From a virus (Duplodnaviria > Heunggongvirae > Uroviricota > Caudoviricetes): 8,623 nt of DNA. The notes under the pieces were generated by a model that saw only the letters and a list, made by a program, of their open reading frames with translations, made no database searches and was not told where the DNA came from. The position numbers and the translations under genes were made by a program. The stretch lies in IMG/VR virus record IMGVR_UViG_3300029085_000036; one strand, written 5' to 3'. This document shows, in pieces, positions 4,078 to 8,573 of the stretch (positions are counted from its first letter, which is position 1; each line of letters opens with the position of its first letter).

Positions 4078-4350
4078 ATGTCTCATACAATCCGTGATAA
4101 ACAGAAACTGAAAGCGCGTGCCAGTAAGATTCAGGGCCAGGTCGTGGCGCTCAAGAAAATGCTCGACGAACCGCATGAATGCGCTGCAGTTTTACAACAG
4201 ATTGCTGCTATCCGTGGCGCGGTAAACGGTCTGATGCGGGAAGTGATTAAAGGCCATCTGACGGAACACATCGTTCACCAGGGGGATGAGCTAAAACGTG
4301 AAGAAGATCTGGATGTCGTTCTGAAGGTGCTGGATTCTTATATCAAATAA
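4078..4350 (+). CDS. rcnR: Ni/Co-responsive transcriptional repressor RcnR (90 aa; CsoR/RcnR family)
   Basis: ORF of 90 aa ([38 protein letters not shown]...), divergent from rcnA across the G/C-tract operators. Recognised from memory as YohL/RcnR. Confidence 0.95.
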
Positions 4351-4439
4351 TTTCACAACGTTATTGTAATACCGCCGTTTTTCCCCGTTTACAACGCGTG
4401 CGCTGGACATTACCATCCTCCTCTGCGATTTATTATCGC

Positions 4440-4491
4440 AACCAAACGACTCGGGGTGCCCTTCTTTGTGAAGGCTGAGAAATACCCGTAT
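4440..4491 (+). ncRNA. TPP (THI-box) riboswitch aptamer, 5' portion only (thiM leader type), truncated at its 3' side
   Basis: Contains GGGGTGCCC...GGC, CTGAGA and ACCC elements in the order expected for the P2/P3/J3-2 part of a TPP aptamer. Matches the E. coli thiM leader as I remember it up to ...ATACCCGTAT. The expected continuation (CACCTGATCTGG... P4/P5 helix) and thiM are absent. Confidence 0.75.
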
Positions 4492-4522
4492 TTTCTCATT
4501 TAGTGTTTTTTGCGGTTCGGGG

Positions 4523-4604
4523 TTGTTCGTGGTTGTTTGCGTATGCATTTGATATTAAATATAATATTGCGTTTTCTTGTTTGTCATTGTTCGTCGTTGT
4601 TCGT
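4523..4604. repeat. Three copies of TTGTTCGT (4523-4530, 4587-4594, 4597-4604) plus the variant TTGTTTGCGT; candidate integrase arm-type binding sites
   Basis: Direct repeats read from the sequence, clustered between the junction and the int start codon. Their role as arm sites is inferred. Confidence 0.4.
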
Positions 4605-4620
4605 AGAGCTTCAACGAAAT

Positions 4621-4644
4621 GTGTGGTCAGTTGTGTGGTCAGTT
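4621..4644 (+). repeat. Perfect 12-bp tandem duplication GTGTGGTCAGTT x2, upstream of int
   Basis: GTGTGGTCAGTT at 4621-4632 and again at 4633-4644, identical. Lies 36 bp upstream of the int GTG start. Confidence 0.85.
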
Positions 4645-4679
4645 TTTTGAGGCTGGAGGACTGAAAAGAGGATCTGATA

Positions 4680-5900
4680 GTGGGAAAAGCACTAAACAAA
4701 CTGAGCGATTCGACGTTAAAAAAATTGGCGGCTGTCCAGGCAGAAAAAGAGCGTTTTTACTCCGACGGGGGCGGGCTGGAGATTAAACACTCAAAGGGCG
4801 GCAAATTAACCTGGTATTTCCGGTACCGAACAGGAGGACGTGAGGTTGCTGCTGAGCGGCTAAAGTTGGGGGCTTATCCTGAATTGTCGCTGAAAGCCGC
4901 AAGGGAAAAACGCACACAGTGCCGGTCATGGCTGGCAGAGGGTAAAAACCCCCGTTATGAGTTGTGCACCACAGTAAAGGAAGCACTAAAACCCGTTACG
5001 GTGAAGGAGGCGATTAACTACTGGCTGGAGGAATACGCGAAGGATAACCGCAAAGACTACATAAAGCTGGTGCAACGTATGGATAAGCACATCATTTGCC
5101 ATATAGGGGCAATTCCCCTTGATAAGTGTGATACAAGGCAGTGGATCGCATGTTTTGACCGTGTACGAAAAAAAGCACCAGTAGCAGCGGGGCACGTCAT
5201 GCAAACCTGCAAACAAGCGCTAAAGTTCTGCCGCAGGAGGCGCTACGCGTTCAGTAATGCCCTGGACGATTTGATCGTCAGCGATGTGGGTAAGAGAGCA
5301 GAAATTCGCGAGAGAGTGCACAGCAACAGCGAATTAAAGGAAATTTTACGCGCTATTGATGGTGATGTGTTCGCGCCTTACTACAGCGCGTTAATGCGCT
5401 TGCTGATTGTGTTCGGGTGCAGAACGGCAGAGGTCAGACTTTCAGAGATCAAAGAATGGGATCTGAAAGAAATGTTGTGGACAGTGCCAAAAGAGCACAG
5501 CAAAACGAAGGTAACGATATTCAGGCCAATACCCGATGGCATTTTGCCGTTCATTCAGAAGCTGGTGGAGCAGAACCGGCATACAGGGTTATTACTCGGA
5601 GAACTGAAAAAAGATACCACGGTAGCGCAATATGGGCGAAATGCGCATAAGCGGCTTAACCAGGAACACTGGACGCTGCATGACTTTCGCCACACGTTTA
5701 CAACGATGCTGAACGATTTAGGTGTCGATCCGCATATCGTGGAGCACATCACAGCGCATCAGATGCCTGGTCAGCAAAAAACCTATAACCATTCACGCTA
5801 TTTACAGGCGAAGCGGGACGCGTTGAATCTGTGGGTTGAGCGTCTCGATGTGCTGGCTGGAAATCATGAAAATATTGTTATGCTGAAGGTGGCTAAATGA
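4680..5900 (+). CDS. int: Tyrosine site-specific integrase, P4-like (406 aa), GTG start
   Basis: GTG at 4680 is the first canonical start after an in-frame stop at 4662-4664, with AAGAGGA 7 nt upstream. N-terminal arm-binding-type region (GGLEIKHSKGGKLTWYFRYR). C-terminal catalytic-type motifs (HDFRHTF, YNHSRY). Sits next to the junction with chromosomal sequence. Confidence 0.9.
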   Translation: MGKALNKLSDSTLKKLAAVQAEKERFYSDGGGLEIKHSKGGKLTWYFRYRTGGREVAAERLKLGAYPELSLKAAREKRTQCRSWLAEGKNPRYELCTTVKEALKPVTVKEAINYWLEEYAKDNRKDYIKLVQRMDKHIICHIGAIPLDKCDTRQWIACFDRVRKKAPVAAGHVMQTCKQALKFCRRRRYAFSNALDDLIVSDVGKRAEIRERVHSNSELKEILRAIDGDVFAPYYSALMRLLIVFGCRTAEVRLSEIKEWDLKEMLWTVPKEHSKTKVTIFRPIPDGILPFIQKLVEQNRHTGLLLGELKKDTTVAQYGRNAHKRLNQEHWTLHDFRHTFTTMLNDLGVDPHIVEHITAHQMPGQQKTYNHSRYLQAKRDALNLWVERLDVLAGNHENIVMLKVAK

Positions 5901-6616
5901 AATTACCTAAAAGACTCTATTATCCGTTACCTGAAGCGGCAGAAAAGTTAGGATGTACAATAAGGGATCTCTATCATTTCGCTAGTACAGGTGCCATTGA
6001 TATTTCTGTATTTATTCCTGAGCATAGTGTTGGGAACTGTGAGGTTTATTTTCTTGAGGGATTTAAAGATAATAAACGGAATGGACTAATATTCCAGGAC
6101 GGCAAAACAATTAATTTAGAGAAGAAAGTAGATGATAGATTATATATAGCAAATTTTATTGCTGGTTTTTTCTATGTAAACAAAAAGGCGTTCTCTGATA
6201 TTGAGTTTAAACATAATAACATCATAAGCTCACCAACATTATATTTTTACCCTGATAGACTTGGCGGTGGATTAGAAATAACTCCAGAAGGGGAAAATCT
6301 CAAGCCATTTGATATAGATGTTGATTATTTATGTGTGATGGCAGATGATTTAAATAATGTAAAAGATGAAGGTAGTTTTCGTAATCTTACAGAAGATAAC
6401 CCCAAAAGAGCAGCAAAAAGGAATGAGGTTATTTACTCTTTAATTAAACTTATTCCAGAAATGGGTGATGTAGACCTAGACACGGAATCATTACCTAAAA
6501 TAGCAGATTTAATTGATTCTATAGCTGCATCCAGAGGGATAGAATTTCCCAAAACACATTGGCAGACATGGCAAAAGTATTTGGGGCGTGAATCTCAACA
6601 AAAACGCAAAAAGTGA
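5897..6616 (+). CDS. Hypothetical 239-aa cargo protein with a possible N-terminal helix-turn-helix; AT-rich, family unrecognised
   Basis: ATG at 5897 overlaps the int stop (ATGA) and has a strong Shine-Dalgarno AAGGTGG 4 nt upstream. Visibly AT-rich compared with int and alpA. The N-terminus (LPEAAEKLGCTIRDLYHFASTGAI) resembles excisionase/AlpA-type HTH. The C-terminal ~190 aa match nothing I recognise. Confidence 0.65.
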   Translation: MKLPKRLYYPLPEAAEKLGCTIRDLYHFASTGAIDISVFIPEHSVGNCEVYFLEGFKDNKRNGLIFQDGKTINLEKKVDDRLYIANFIAGFFYVNKKAFSDIEFKHNNIISSPTLYFYPDRLGGGLEITPEGENLKPFDIDVDYLCVMADDLNNVKDEGSFRNLTEDNPKRAAKRNEVIYSLIKLIPEMGDVDLDTESLPKIADLIDSIAASRGIEFPKTHWQTWQKYLGRESQQKRKK

Positions 6617-6707: not shown

Positions 6708-6932
6708 ATGAATCAAAATACACAATTTCAATCACTATCAGATCGCGTAATCCGTGAGGATGAATGTCGTAAGTTAACAGGAGTGTGCCGCACTACACGC
6801 TATGAACTGGAGAAAAAAGGATGCTTTCCGTCACGTCTTAATCTGGGCGGTCGTTCTGTAGGTTGGCTGCTGTCCGAGGTTATGGAATGGGTTAAAAGCC
6901 GGGATCGCATTAATTCAGGCAAGGCAGCGTAA
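6708..6932 (+). CDS. alpA: AlpA-family phage regulatory protein / excisionase-like (74 aa)
   Basis: Small ORF with the characteristic AlpA/Vis-type pattern (...CRKLTGVCRTTRYELEKKGCFPSRLNLGGRSVGWLLSEVMEWV...). Lies downstream of int as in P4-like and CP4-57-like elements. Confidence 0.85.
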   Translation: MNQNTQFQSLSDRVIREDECRKLTGVCRTTRYELEKKGCFPSRLNLGGRSVGWLLSEVMEWVKSRDRINSGKAA

Positions 6933-6959
6933 AGGGGAGTATATGGCACATAAAACAAA

Positions 6960-6979
6960 GGCGACCGGGGGCGGTCGCC
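6960..6979 (-). terminator. Rho-independent terminator for the minus-strand small-gene pair
   Basis: Stem GGCGACC (6960-6966) / GGTCGCC (6973-6979) with a G-rich loop. On the minus strand it is followed by TTTGTTTTAT. No comparable U-tract on the plus strand. Confidence 0.55.
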
Positions 6980-7043
6980 AATGGGAATACACTAAACATA
7001 AGCCCAGCCATCATAGCGATTTGCTGGCTGGTGGGCAATGTGA

Positions 7044-7253
7044 TCAGCCTGGTGGGCGGTTCCTGTTAGCTTTCATTACCCGGGGCTGTTTATTGAGAAA
7101 CTCATCAAGCGCAAATTTTGTAGGCGCTGGTTCTGTATTTGGTGGCATTTGTTTAGCGTGTGTCTTTTCTTTCTGGCGTGCAACAATGCTCTGTAAAAGC
7201 AATCTTCGTTGTTCTGCGAAAATCTCTTCAGTGGATAGGTATTTTTTGCTCAT
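7044..7253 (-). CDS. Hypothetical small basic protein (69 aa)
   Basis: Minus-strand ORF (MSKKYLSTEEIFAEQRRLLLQSIVARQKEK...) directly downstream of the 59-aa gene and followed by the terminator at 6960-6979. Overlaps the implausible 317-aa plus-strand ORF, which I reject. Confidence 0.45.
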   Translation of the reverse strand: MSKKYLSTEEIFAEQRRLLLQSIVARQKEKTHAKQMPPNTEPAPTKFALDEFLNKQPRVMKANRNRPPG

Positions 7254-7310
7254 AGTGCCGACCTGTAAAGCAATGCGCCGGAGTACCTCACACCACAGCG
7301 CTGATAGTGA

Positions 7311-7490
7311 TTATTCTTGCTCTTTAGCCTTGCGTCGCTGGCGGTATTCAACTTCTCGCTTTAATGCTGCTGTTACAAACTGCCCTGTACTTTCACCAGG
7401 CATTTTTACCGCCTCAACATTGTTCATAACTTCATGCGGAACCCTTGCCGCAACTGTTTGTGATTTTGCGTTTACTGCTTTTGTCGCCAT
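7311..7490 (-). CDS. Small 59-aa protein, possibly a ribbon-helix-helix or YlcI/YnfO-like prophage regulator; not in the supplied ORF track
   Basis: Hand-translated from the reverse complement: MATKAVNAKSQTVAARVPHEVMNNVEAVKMPGESTGQFVTAALKREVEYRQRRKAKEQE, with stop TAA at 7311-7313. ATG at 7490 has GAGGGG about 8 nt upstream. Divergent from the early operon across the repeat-bearing control region. Family assignment is from memory. Confidence 0.5.
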   Translation of the reverse strand: MATKAVNAKSQTVAARVPHEVMNNVEAVKMPGESTGQFVTAALKREVEYRQRRKAKEQE

Positions 7491-7540
7491 GTTGTGTACC
7501 CCTCACAAAAAACAAATGCAGTATGCAGGAAAAAAAACAA

Positions 7541-7593
7541 GTGTTCAACACTTGACGTGTTCAACACCTGAGTTTAAATTGGTGTTCAACACC
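7541..7593. promoter_or_regulatory. Three copies of a dyad-symmetric 11-bp motif GTGTTCAACAC (7541-7551, 7557-7567, 7582-7592) in the divergent control region; candidate operators
   Basis: Exact repeats read from the sequence. Each is an inverted repeat GTGTT-C-AACAC. Overlaps promoter-like hexamers TTGACG (7552-7557) and TAAATT (7575-7580) on the plus strand, and TTGAAC/CATACT on the minus strand. Confidence 0.6.
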
Positions 7594-7689
7594 TTGTTGA
7601 TGCAAGGTGCAGAAACGACGAAACCCGGCAGTGCGCTAACACTAACCGGGCTTCTAACCACCAACGATAGCAAGAATATCGAGGTAGCT

Positions 7690-7896
7690 ATGAGAAATCA
7701 TACCACACACCCGCAAGGGCGGGACTCACACAACCTGAATAAATACATCTGGCGTTTTATTGCCCTGAGCACCGCACAACCGCGCGTGATTCACATTGAG
7801 GCCACCAGCGAACAGGAAGCACGCCAGCAATCCCCGGCTGGCTGCGTGATGGTATTTACTGCCCGTATTCGTCAGGGGGTGCGCCATGTGCAATAA
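7690..7896 (+). CDS. Small 68-aa protein, possibly Icd/Kil-like host cell division inhibitor; first gene of the island early operon
   Basis: Internal ATG at 7690 of the long track ORF, with GAGGT 4 nt upstream. Sequence pattern (...WRFIALSTAQPRVIHIEATSEQEARQQSPAGCVMVFTARIRQ) resembles Icd-like proteins of P4-like prophages as I recall them. Stop overlaps the start of the next gene. Confidence 0.45.
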   Translation: MRNHTTHPQGRDSHNLNKYIWRFIALSTAQPRVIHIEATSEQEARQQSPAGCVMVFTARIRQGVRHVQ

Positions 7897-8338
7897 CACC
7901 CGTCCGGACGCAGCCGCCGAAGCAATCAAAACACTGATTGATGCGCTGATTGATATTTCTGTTATCGCGGACAGGGCGCATAAGCACGCCACCAGTGAAA
8001 CAGAATATGCCGGGGCTTTCGTTCCTCACTCACTGGCTGTTATGCAACTTAGTGCTGATATGGCACTGAATGAGGCTAAAGCCATCCTGATTGCTGATTG
8101 TGAAAATGGGGGGGTTATGCGTGATGATCGTTTTAATGCCCTGAAACAGGAATTTCCCGGCGTTCCTGATGATGCGGCTGATGCGCTTTCGTCAATGCCA
8201 GAACTTATTAGAGCGGCTTTTTTCTTACTTTCCACGAGAGAATATAAATCAACGGGGCTTGATGTACTGAATATCGCCGCCGATTATGCTGATTTCGTGA
8301 CAGAGGTTATTTTAAGAAAAACGACGGACGGGGATTAA
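7886..8338 (+). CDS. Hypothetical acidic 150-aa protein of the early operon (possibly the counterpart of P4 orf151)
   Basis: ATG at 7886 with a strong Shine-Dalgarno AGGGGG 6 nt upstream. Overlaps the upstream gene stop by 11 nt. Helical, acidic composition. Confidence 0.6.
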   Translation: MCNNTRPDAAAEAIKTLIDALIDISVIADRAHKHATSETEYAGAFVPHSLAVMQLSADMALNEAKAILIADCENGGVMRDDRFNALKQEFPGVPDDAADALSSMPELIRAAFFLLSTREYKSTGLDVLNIAADYADFVTEVILRKTTDGD

Positions 8339-8339
8339 T

Positions 8340-8573
8340 ATGCGTGATATTTACCACGAAACAATAGACCGCGCATTTCTTGCACTTTCTCACAGTGAAA
8401 ACATGCTGGAAATATTGCGCATATGGCTTGAAACACTTGGCGACAATGAACGCGACAAACAAAAATCAAGAATTGCCACGGCATTAATAACGCTTCTTGA
8501 GCCTGTAATAAATGAGTTGCAGGAAATAGAGACATTACACGACCAGTATAAAGCGCCCCACACCGGAGAATAA
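8340..8573 (+). CDS. Hypothetical 77-aa protein of the early operon
   Basis: ATG at 8340, one base after the stop of the 150-aa gene (tight coupling). No recognisable family. Confidence 0.5.
   Translation: MRDIYHETIDRAFLALSHSENMLEILRIWLETLGDNERDKQKSRIATALITLLEPVINELQEIETLHDQYKAPHTGE

What the first reader, a model, noticed from the sequence alone, without database searches (positions are those of the whole stretch)
4440..4700. Integrative island appears to be inserted inside the thiM TPP riboswitch aptamer rather than at a tRNA
Bases 4447-4491 carry the 5' half of a TPP aptamer (GGGGTGCCC...GGC, CTGAGA, ACCC) and match the E. coli thiM leader as I remember it up to ...ATACCCGTAT. The expected 3' half (CACCTGATCTGG..., P4/P5 helix, 3' strand of P1) and thiM itself are missing. 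In their place is a T/AT-rich repeat-bearing arm and a P4-type integrase gene transcribed away from the junction. P4-like integrases normally target tRNA or tmRNA 3' ends, so a riboswitch target would be unusual. It would also split or re-wire regulation of thiMD. Depending on the length of the shared att core, the riboswitch may or may not be reconstituted at the far end. A two-base difference in the P3 loop (CTTCTTTGTGAAGG here, CTTCTGCGTGAAGG in my recollection of K-12) could be strain variation or could mark element-derived sequence. A promoter-like TTTACA (4388-4393) / 17 bp / TACCAT (4411-4416) upstream may be the native thiM leader promoter.
Basis: partly seen in the sequence, partly recalled or inferred. 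Interest (0 to 1): 0.7.

Follow-up and report, generated by a model that had tools for sequence, protein, structure and literature searches.

The report
Phage satellite island splits thiM riboswitch
A mobile phage-satellite island has inserted in the middle of the RNA switch that lets E. coli sense vitamin B1, cutting the switch in two; the insertion site was already catalogued, but I found no paper noting that it lies inside the switch.

Summary
Window 4442-4491 is the 5' half of the E. coli thiM TPP riboswitch aptamer (Rfam RF00059 positions 1-58 of 105). It is identical to island-free genomes up to base 4491, and foreign DNA starts at 4492. That DNA is the left arm of a capsid-forming phage-inducible chromosomal island (cf-PICI): a repeat-bearing arm, a P4/CP4-type tyrosine integrase (4680-5900), AlpA and further island genes.

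In six related complete genomes the island is 10.6-16 kb. Its far end carries only a 14-bp direct repeat of the core, AGAAATACCCGTAT, followed by the 3' half of the aptamer and intact thiM-thiD. The riboswitch is therefore split and not rebuilt. The island supplies no substitute 5' half.

The site is occupied in 76 of 5426 complete E. coli genomes. Salmonella integrases 71-76% identical sit at the same position.

The att site itself is already published: EcCI224, core AGAAATACCCGTAT, listed as "frmR-thiM" in Fillol-Salom 2018, Table S1. None of the papers I could search notes that this core lies inside the riboswitch.

The P3-loop difference is a natural allele. How thiMD is transcribed in occupied strains is unresolved.

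The parts
4078..4350 (+). rcnR, the last host gene before the junction
   Evidence: Annotated as rcnR in the matching E. coli genomes. PF02583 in near-identical loci.
4388..4416 (+). Sigma-70-like site TTTACA-17-TACCAT, candidate native thiM promoter; it now faces the island integrase
   Evidence: Only + strand site in 4300-4720. Identical in MG1655. Salmonella has TTTACA-17-TATGCT at the same place (sequence read). No mapping experiment was consulted.
4442..4491 (+). 5' half of the thiM TPP riboswitch aptamer (P1 5' strand, P2, P3, CUGAGA, ACCC, J2-4)
   Evidence: 3'-truncated RF00059 hit, model positions 1-58 of 105, 21.2 bits. 100% identical to the annotated riboswitch of island-free genomes. 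Aligned to MG1655.
4478..4491 (.). attL copy of the 14-bp att core AGAAATACCCGTAT
   Evidence: Direct repeat at both island ends in CEA106S and in five further genomes. Same core as published for EcCI224. With the island flank it forms the imperfect inverted repeat GAGAAAT-ACCCGT-ATTTTCTC (read); this is a candidate pair of core-type Int sites (inference).
4492..4679 (+). Island arm of attL (the P' arm of attP), T-rich and repeat-bearing
   Evidence: Absent from island-free genomes. Repeats listed.
4577..4652 (+). Arm repeat of about 75 bp, also present in the other island arm; it contains the tandem TGTGTGGTCAGT at 4620-4643 (candidate arm-type Int sites)
   Evidence: Local alignment to L001 35558-35631, with 1 mismatch and a 2-bp gap. 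Conserved in six right arms. Salmonella arms carry the same tandem motif, or TGTGAGGTCAGT.
4680..5900 (+). Tyrosine integrase of the P4/CP4 type with an N-terminal arm-binding domain
   Evidence: PF13356 at 5.5e-18 and PF00589 at 5.1e-17. phrog_1 integrase. N-terminal match to the solved 'CP4-like integrase' domain 3jtz. The identical protein lies next to rcnR in all 8 contigs shown of the 24 read.
5897..6616 (+). Conserved island ORF of unknown function (239 aa)
   Evidence: Called in all near-identical loci. No Pfam or PHROG match.
6708..6932 (+). AlpA-type regulator/excisionase
   Evidence: PF05930 at 1.1e-15. phrog_2790, 'excisionase and transcriptional regulator'.
7690..7896 (+). Small Icd-like / repressor-like island gene
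   Evidence: phrog_6196 at 5e-45. The counterpart genes in related islands are annotated 'host cell division inhibitor Icd-like'.
7886..8573 (+). Two further island ORFs (150 aa and 77 aa) of unknown function; the island runs past the end of the window
   Evidence: phrog_2512 and phrog_2196. In near-identical loci they are followed by DUF4222, a D5-type primase, SSB, PerC, capsid, protease and portal genes.

Best explanation
The window holds the left junction (attL) of a capsid-forming phage-inducible chromosomal island (cf-PICI).

Its tyrosine integrase recombined the island's attP with a 14-bp core, AGAAATACCCGTAT, in the host chromosome. That core lies inside the thiM TPP riboswitch aptamer. 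It covers the last three bases of the CUGAGA thiamine-pyrimidine-binding motif, the 3' strand of P2 (ACCC) and the J2-4 linker.

Insertion splits the aptamer. The 5' half (P1 5' strand, P2, P3, CUGAGA) stays with the presumed thiM promoter and now points into the island's int gene. The 3' half (P4/P5, P1 3' strand, the Shine-Dalgarno (SD) sequestering platform) stays with thiM-thiD, 10-16 kb away. The island duplicates only the core and brings no replacement half, so the riboswitch cannot form in cis while the island is integrated. Precise excision would restore it.

Shown: the junctions, the core, the split, the island type, recurrence in E. coli and Salmonella.

Inferred: thiMD loses TPP control. 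Its leader defaults to the SD-open fold. Its transcription no longer comes from its own promoter. The crossover lies in ACCCGTA, between the inverted AGAAAT/ATTTTCT core sites. The TGTGTGGTCAGT tandems are arm-type Int sites.
For: Junctions.
- Window, MG1655 and the CEA106S attL and attR are aligned.
- MG1655 has a full TPP hit of 71.2 bits.
- The window half scores 21.2 bits over model positions 1-58.
- The attR half scores 38.4 bits over model positions 47-105.
- Adding the island arm lowers that score to 36.8 bits.
- No TPP hit reaches the gathering score anywhere across the whole CEA106S island and its flanks.

Island type.
- Integrase and AlpA are in the window.
- The identical integrase is followed by a D5 primase, SSB, PerC, capsid, S78 protease, portal and head-closure genes in all 8 contigs shown of the 24 read.
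- In CEA106S the island ends after HNH, terS and terL, with no tail or lysis genes.

Recurrence.
- 76 of 5426 complete E. coli genomes carry both junctions.
- Different cargo (classical PICI EcCI224, cf-PICIs) shares the same int/att module.
- O157:H7 has both an empty site (strain 3-5-1, TPP riboswitch annotated) and an occupied one (MB41-1).
- Near-identical islands sit next to both host P3-loop alleles.
- Salmonella integrases 71-76% identical sit at exactly the same position.

Published.
- The same core and site are listed for EcCI224.

Consequences.
- RNAfold keeps the anti-SD paired to GGGAAG. The first three SD bases are unpaired with p of about 0.74-0.96 in attR leaders with up to 40 nt upstream of the core.
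- None of the six occupied genomes has a sigma-70-like site within 800 bp upstream of thiM, and none is shared among them within 1.5 kb. The same criteria find TTTACA-17-TACCAT in MG1655.
- thiM and thiD are annotated intact in all six.
Against: - The far end of the island in the window's own genome was not seen. The window stops 4.1 kb into the island, so the attR evidence comes from relatives (CEA106S is 98% identical over the shared parts).
- No excised attP form was found in IMG/VR or in metagenome contigs. Mobility therefore rests on comparative evidence only.
- The regulatory consequences are predictions. The fold predictions change with the assumed 5' end: SD pairing rises for leaders of 120 nt or more.
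- Some islands have terminator-like hairpins between their last gene and thiM. Read-through as the source of thiMD mRNA is therefore doubtful, and the real source is unknown.
Confidence: 0.9

Rival explanations
1. The insertion is physiologically neutral. An unrecognised outward-reading promoter in the island's right end, or at the attR junction, transcribes thiMD. The only change is loss of TPP repression, giving constitutive ThiM and ThiD.
For: thiM and thiD are intact in all six occupied genomes examined. The attR leader is predicted to leave the Shine-Dalgarno (SD) sequence open. The site is tolerated in 76 genomes of varied background.
Against: No sigma-70-like site is conserved in the roughly 210-bp arm or within 1.5 kb upstream of thiM. 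Intact ORFs prove little if the insertions are recent.
Confidence: 0.4
2. The insertion silences or strongly lowers thiMD. This would make carriers dependent on external thiamine, because ThiD is needed for de novo synthesis (established knowledge). Such a cost is tolerable in the gut.
For: The only recognisable promoter is displaced by 10-16 kb. Terminator-like hairpins lie between island genes and thiM in EcCI224, UMNF18 and the O157 island. Occupancy is low, at 1.4% of genomes.
Against: No pseudogenisation of thiM or thiD. No phenotype data. CEA106S has no + strand terminator-like site downstream of terL.
Confidence: 0.3
3. The island right arm provides a surrogate 5' half, so the hybrid attR leader is still a working, if weaker, TPP riboswitch. 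This would parallel tRNA-targeting elements that rebuild the tRNA 3' end.
For: cmscan can thread the arm sequence (GAGGU ... GUAAGA) onto the 5' half of the model and still reports E=5e-6.
Against: That full-length alignment scores 1.6 bits less than the 3' half alone (36.8 against 38.4). It needs a 43-nt insertion in P3 and several non-canonical pairs. CUGAGA becomes GUAAGA. The GAGG is GAAG in UMNF18. PGAP annotates no riboswitch at occupied sites, although it does at empty ones.
Confidence: 0.03
4. The junction is a fixed, decayed remnant and not an active element. The riboswitch half would then be a scar of one old event.
For: No attP circle was found in public viral or metagenome contigs.
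Against: The integrase ORF is intact and occurs identically in 191 blocks of the collection. A full cf-PICI gene set is present. The same int/att module carries different cargo. Empty and occupied sites occur within one lineage. Both host alleles are found next to the island. The same target is used in Salmonella.
Confidence: 0.05

Closest known systems
EcCI224, a classical Gram-negative PICI of E. coli Ecol_224 (Fillol-Salom et al. 2018, ISME J, PMC6092414, Table S1)
   Same: Same att site and identical core AGAAATACCCGTAT, listed as 'frmR-thiM'. The attL junction and arm are about 92% identical over window 4441-4690 (H97). The left end has the same order of integrase, ORF and AlpA.
   Different: EcCI224 is 10.6 kb and has a protease-capsid fusion and a DUF1441 gene, not a full head module. 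The island here belongs to the capsid-forming type. The paper does not mention the riboswitch.
cf-PICI family, prototype EcCIEDL933 (bioRxiv 10.1101/2022.09.08.507074)
   Same: About 15 kb with int at the left end, AlpA, primase, then capsid, protease, portal, head-closure, connector, HNH, terS and terL, and no tail genes. The paper states that E. coli cf-PICIs use six attB sites, four of them shared with classical PICIs. That fits this site being used by both kinds.
   Different: I could not read that paper's table of att sites. Whether this site, or this island, is listed there is unknown. The location of EcCIEDL933 itself was not checked.
P4 / CP4-57-type integrases that target tRNA or tmRNA 3' ends
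   Same: Same domain architecture: N-terminal arm-binding domain PF13356 plus catalytic domain PF00589, with an AlpA partner. The attP arms carry repeats. The target is a conserved structured-RNA sequence.
   Different: tRNA-targeting elements carry a copy of the displaced gene end, so the tRNA stays intact (own knowledge). Here only 14 bp are duplicated and the RNA element is broken.
Intact E. coli thiM TPP riboswitch (Rfam RF00059)
   Same: Window 4442-4491 is its 5' half, base for base.
   Different: Model positions 59-105 and the expression platform are absent from the window.
Prophages and islands that interrupt a host gene and restore it on excision ('active lysogeny', e.g. the Listeria comK prophage; own knowledge, not tested here)
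   Same: Reversible interruption of a functional host element by site-specific recombination.
   Different: The interrupted element here is a cis-regulatory RNA and not a coding sequence. No evidence exists that excision is used as a switch.

Membership tests
TPP riboswitch (RF00059) | Complete aptamer with both sensor arms (P2/P3 with CUGAGA, and P4/P5) closed by P1, scoring at or above the Rfam gathering score of 54.3 bits | tested here: not met
   The window has only model positions 1-58. It scores 21.2 bits as a truncated hit and 19.6 bits in a full-length alignment. The whole-window scan gives nothing. It is a fragment of a member, not a member.
TPP riboswitch (RF00059) | Homology of the fragment to a bona fide member | tested here: met
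   Colinear with the MG1655 thiM riboswitch, which scores 71.2 bits. 100% identical to riboswitch features annotated in island-free genomes.
PICI / cf-PICI (phage satellite) | int at one end, AlpA-type regulator, and genes mostly transcribed in one direction | tested here: met
PICI / cf-PICI (phage satellite) | Own primase/replication module and a size of about 10-15 kb | tested here: met
   A D5-type primase lies downstream in loci that carry the identical integrase. The island is about 15.3 kb in CEA106S and 10.6 kb for EcCI224. The island's size in the window's own genome was not seen.
PICI / cf-PICI (phage satellite) | cf-PICI hallmark: own capsid, protease, portal, head-completion and terminase genes, but no tail or lysis genes | tested here: met
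   Capsid, S78 protease, portal and head-closure genes in L008-L015. HNH, terS and terL come next, then attR, in CEA106S and O157 MB41-1. This was shown in relatives, because the window ends before these genes.
PICI / cf-PICI (phage satellite) | Induction and packaging by a helper phage | not testable with these tools
   Needs experiments.
PICI att site 'frmR-thiM' (Fillol-Salom 2018) | Core AGAAATACCCGTAT between rcnR (called frmR there) and thiM | tested here: met
   Core at window 4478-4491. The published table entry was read. The Ecol_224 locus was inspected.
Tyrosine integrase, P4/CP4 type | Arm-binding N-terminal domain plus tyrosine recombinase catalytic domain | tested here: met
   PF13356 and PF00589 are above their cut-offs. 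The N-terminal domain matches 3jtz and 3ju0. Catalytic residues were not checked individually.
Tyrosine integrase, P4/CP4 type | Recombination activity at this att site | not testable with these tools
   Only comparative evidence: empty and occupied sites and direct repeats. No attP was found in public contigs.

The most novel reading that the evidence does not exclude
Riboswitch aptamers can serve as integration targets in the way tRNA genes do, but destructively. On this reading the satellite turns thiMD from a TPP-repressed operon into a TPP-blind one, with expression that depends on the island. It also places its own integrase downstream of the host thiM promoter. Integration and excision would then act as a reversible switch on thiamine salvage and synthesis in about 1.4% of E. 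coli and in some Salmonella.
Probability: 0.3. Interest if true: 0.6.

Novelty: new member of a known kind. Interest (0 to 1): 0.4.

Why it matters
Phage satellites are said to use 'unique att sites', which are usually described as intergenic. This one is a conserved regulatory RNA, and the insertion breaks it.

That gives a simple, testable prediction: carriers have lost vitamin-B1 feedback on thiMD and may have altered thiamine autonomy. Natural empty and occupied pairs are available for the test, for example O157:H7 strains 3-5-1 and MB41-1.

The finding also bears on annotation. Riboswitch scans silently drop the element in occupied genomes. Island-boundary finders that look only for tRNA genes will miss this site.

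It is an incremental point about a known element and does not describe a new system.

Tried and rejected
- **tRNA or tmRNA at the boundary:** none in the window.
- **Full or rebuilt riboswitch:** rejected.
- **P3-loop variant as element-derived DNA:** rejected. It is a common host allele, and the island sits next to both alleles.
- **Relatives in species-representative genomes:**
  - The search for related loci with the integrase found nothing.
  - The exact attL junction pattern also gave 0 hits.
- **Excised attP form:** absent from IMG/VR and from metagenome contigs. The attL pattern gave only 8 integrated IMG/VR proviruses, which I did not study further.
- **Outward promoter toward thiM:** neither the tool scan nor a relaxed script scan found a conserved candidate.
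- **Read-through from the island as the source of thiMD mRNA:** not supported uniformly, because some islands have terminator-like hairpins.
- **Literature on thiM or a riboswitch as an att site:**
  - The text searches gave nothing relevant.
  - Two apparent hits were unrelated.
- **cf-PICI att-site table:** the supplement is not held, and the published version is not held either.
- **Far end in the window's own lineage:** I could not chain contig look-ups to reach it, because only window proteins may be looked up and 10 kb of flank falls about 1.2 kb short.
Full report
**What is in the window**

The left 4.35 kb is ordinary E. coli chromosome: the end of yehB, yehA, rcnB, rcnA and rcnR. After rcnR (4078-4350) comes the start of the thiM leader. 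It has a sigma-70-like TTTACA-17-TACCAT at 4388-4416, the only such + strand site in 4300-4720.

Next is the 5' half of the thiM TPP aptamer. Cut at 4491, the stretch gives a 3'-truncated Rfam RF00059 hit at 4442-4491, covering model positions 1-58 of 105, at 21.2 bits and E=0.014. Extended into the following DNA it reaches only 19.6 bits against a gathering score of 54.3. A whole-window scan reports no TPP element. The same region of MG1655 scores 71.2 bits full length. No tRNA or tmRNA is present.

**Where the host sequence ends**

Aligned with MG1655, the window is colinear up to ...GGCTGAGAAATACCCGTAT (4491) and unrelated from 4492. Most of the 872 genomes whose best match is at least 99% identical match window 4441-4491 at 100%. 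In the listed rows, such as ATCC 25922 and NRG 857C, that match stops exactly at 4491 and the stretch is annotated as a riboswitch.

This also settles the P3-loop question. CTTCTTTGTGAAGG is a common host allele. Near-identical islands lie next to both the TTTG and the TGCG allele, so the difference is strain variation on the bacterial side of the crossover.

**What is inserted**

- Bases 4492-4679 are a T-rich arm with repeats.
- Bases 4680-5900 encode a 406-aa tyrosine integrase. It has the arm-binding domain PF13356 and the catalytic domain PF00589. Its N-terminus matches solved 'CP4-like integrase' domains.
- Downstream are a conserved ORF, an AlpA regulator/excisionase (6708-6932) and small genes with PHROG matches.
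- The identical integrase occurs in 191 blocks of the assembly collection. In all 8 contigs shown of the 24 read, it sits next to rcnR. It is followed by DUF4222, a D5-type primase, SSB, PerC, major capsid, S78 protease, portal and head-closure genes.
- In the complete genome of strain CEA106S (98% identical over the shared island parts) the island is about 15.3 kb. It ends with HNH, terS and terL, and has no tail or lysis genes.

This is the gene set of a capsid-forming PICI as defined in bioRxiv 10.1101/2022.09.08.507074.

**The other end**

I inspected six complete genomes: CEA106S, O157:H7 MB41-1, Ecol_224, VG35A2, UMNF18 and an ST80 strain. In each, the right end reads island arm, AGAAATACCCGTAT, then CACCTGATCTGGATAATGCCAGCGTAGGGAAG..., and then thiM-thiD, both annotated intact.

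The direct repeat is therefore 14 bp (window 4478-4491). In the riboswitch it spans the last three bases of CUGAGA, the 3' strand of P2 and J2-4.

The aptamer is not rebuilt:
- Across the CEA106S island and its flanks nothing reaches the gathering score.
- The 3' half alone scores 38.4 bits as a 5'-truncated hit, model positions 47-105.
- Letting the model use the island arm as a 5' half lowers the score to 36.8 bits.
- NCBI's PGAP annotation pipeline marks a TPP riboswitch at an empty site but not at occupied ones.

**Anatomy of the att region**

Both arms carry a repeat of about 75 bp: window 4577-4652 matches CEA106S locus L001 35558-35631. It includes a tandem TGTGTGGTCAGT. About 210 bp of the right arm is conserved among islands with different cargo.

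At attL, the core plus the island flank reads GAGAAAT-ACCCGT-ATTTTCTC. This is an imperfect inverted repeat of the kind that flanks the overlap region of tyrosine-recombinase core sites. Calling these arm-type and core-type Int sites is inference.

**How common it is, and whether it is mobile**

- Queries for attL and for attR each find 76 of 5426 complete E. coli genomes with the full junction. They include ST131, ST648, ETEC, porcine, avian and wildlife isolates and a few O157:H7 strains.
- Within O157:H7 there is an empty site (strain 3-5-1) and an occupied one (MB41-1) in the same local background.
- The same int/att module carries a classical PICI (EcCI224), cf-PICIs and other variants.
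- Integrases 71-76% identical in Salmonella enterica sit at the same nucleotide position of the Salmonella thiM riboswitch, with the same arm motif.
- The next clade, 67% identical, sits beside cspD. A 55% identical Citrobacter clade sits elsewhere. Riboswitch targeting is therefore a property of one integrase subclade.
- No excised attP form was found in IMG/VR or in metagenome contigs.
- No species-representative genome carries the junction.

**Consequences for thiMD (inferred)**

TPP binding needs both sensor arms of the aptamer (established knowledge of RF00059). With the arms 10-16 kb apart, regulation in cis is lost.

RNAfold predicts that attR leaders with up to 40 nt upstream of the core keep the ligand-free fold. 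In that fold the anti-Shine-Dalgarno (anti-SD) stretch CUUCUUC pairs with GGGAAG, and the first three SD bases are free (p of about 0.74-0.96). The prediction degrades for leaders of 120 nt or more.

The only recognisable promoter now faces int. Using the criteria that detect it in MG1655, none of the six occupied genomes has a sigma-70-like site within 800 bp upstream of thiM, and none is shared among them within 1.5 kb.

Island genes run in the same direction as thiM. However, EcCI224, UMNF18 and the O157 island have terminator-like hairpins before thiM. How thiMD is transcribed in carriers is therefore open. Because ThiD is required for de novo thiamine synthesis (established knowledge), carriers could range from TPP-blind constitutive to thiamine-dependent.

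**Comparison with what is known**

The att site is published. Table S1 of Fillol-Salom et al. 2018 (PMC6092414) lists EcCI224 in strain Ecol_224 with core AGAAATACCCGTAT and site 'frmR-thiM'. That paper and its supplements never mention a riboswitch, thiamine or TPP. The two cf-PICI preprints do not mention thiM or a riboswitch either.

Full-text searches combining thiM or riboswitch with integrase, attB, prophage or PICI returned nothing relevant.

The same table shows that integrases of Gram-negative PICIs routinely use non-tRNA sites. What stands is that the target is a structured regulatory RNA and that, unlike a tRNA target, it is destroyed and not rebuilt.

**Verdict**

The observation and the interpretation are correct. 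The element is a new, unnamed member of a known family at a known att site. The added value is that this site is recognised as the thiM TPP aptamer, that the split is demonstrated, and that there is a testable regulatory consequence. Interest is moderate (0.4).

Noticed in passing
window 7617-7689 (-): Sub-threshold Rfam match to the SymR antitoxin RNA (33.4 bits against a gathering score of 61, E=0.0024). It lies directly upstream of, and antisense to, the leader of the Icd-like/repressor-like gene at 7690-7896. It may be a small regulatory RNA of the island or a chance match.
   Followed up: no
window 6943-7896 (+): This mechanical 317-aa ORF is probably not a gene. In near-identical loci gene callers place small genes here instead: 7044-7253 (-), 7311-7490 (-, phrog_949) and 7690-7896 (+).
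   Followed up: partly
window 4587-4558 (-): Good sigma-70-like site ATGACA-18-TATATT (10 of 12) in the island arm. It points leftward out of the island, across attL and antisense to the half riboswitch. It is only partly conserved in related arms (read).
   Followed up: partly
L003 11678-13950 and L030 734-3006 (E. coli O157:H7): O157:H7 strains carry a lineage-specific segment of about 2.3 kb between rcnR and the riboswitch (outer membrane protein, hypothetical, HTH-like genes). It replaces the K-12 sequence right up to AACCAAACGACTC, so the TTTACA-17-TACCAT element is absent there, in both empty and occupied strains. thiM must use a different promoter in this lineage.
   Followed up: partly
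L001 35093-35262 (CEA106S island, downstream of terL): Three direct TTGCGGGTTA iterons and three inverted copies (ATAACCCGC, CTAACCCGC, ATAACCCGC) flank an AT-rich stretch. This layout resembles a PICI replication origin, or possibly a packaging site.
   Followed up: partly
L016 2760-2830 and L017 2745-2810 (Salmonella enterica): Salmonella relatives of the integrase (71-76% identity) are inserted at the identical position of the Salmonella thiM riboswitch. Both contigs break inside the island, so the cargo is unknown.
   Followed up: partly
L001 35453-35755 (-), and the same place in L005-L007: RefSeq annotates a 'hypothetical protein' of 90-100 aa on the minus strand. It spans attR from the thiM leader into the island arm. 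It is a chimeric ORF created by the insertion and is most likely spurious.
   Followed up: no
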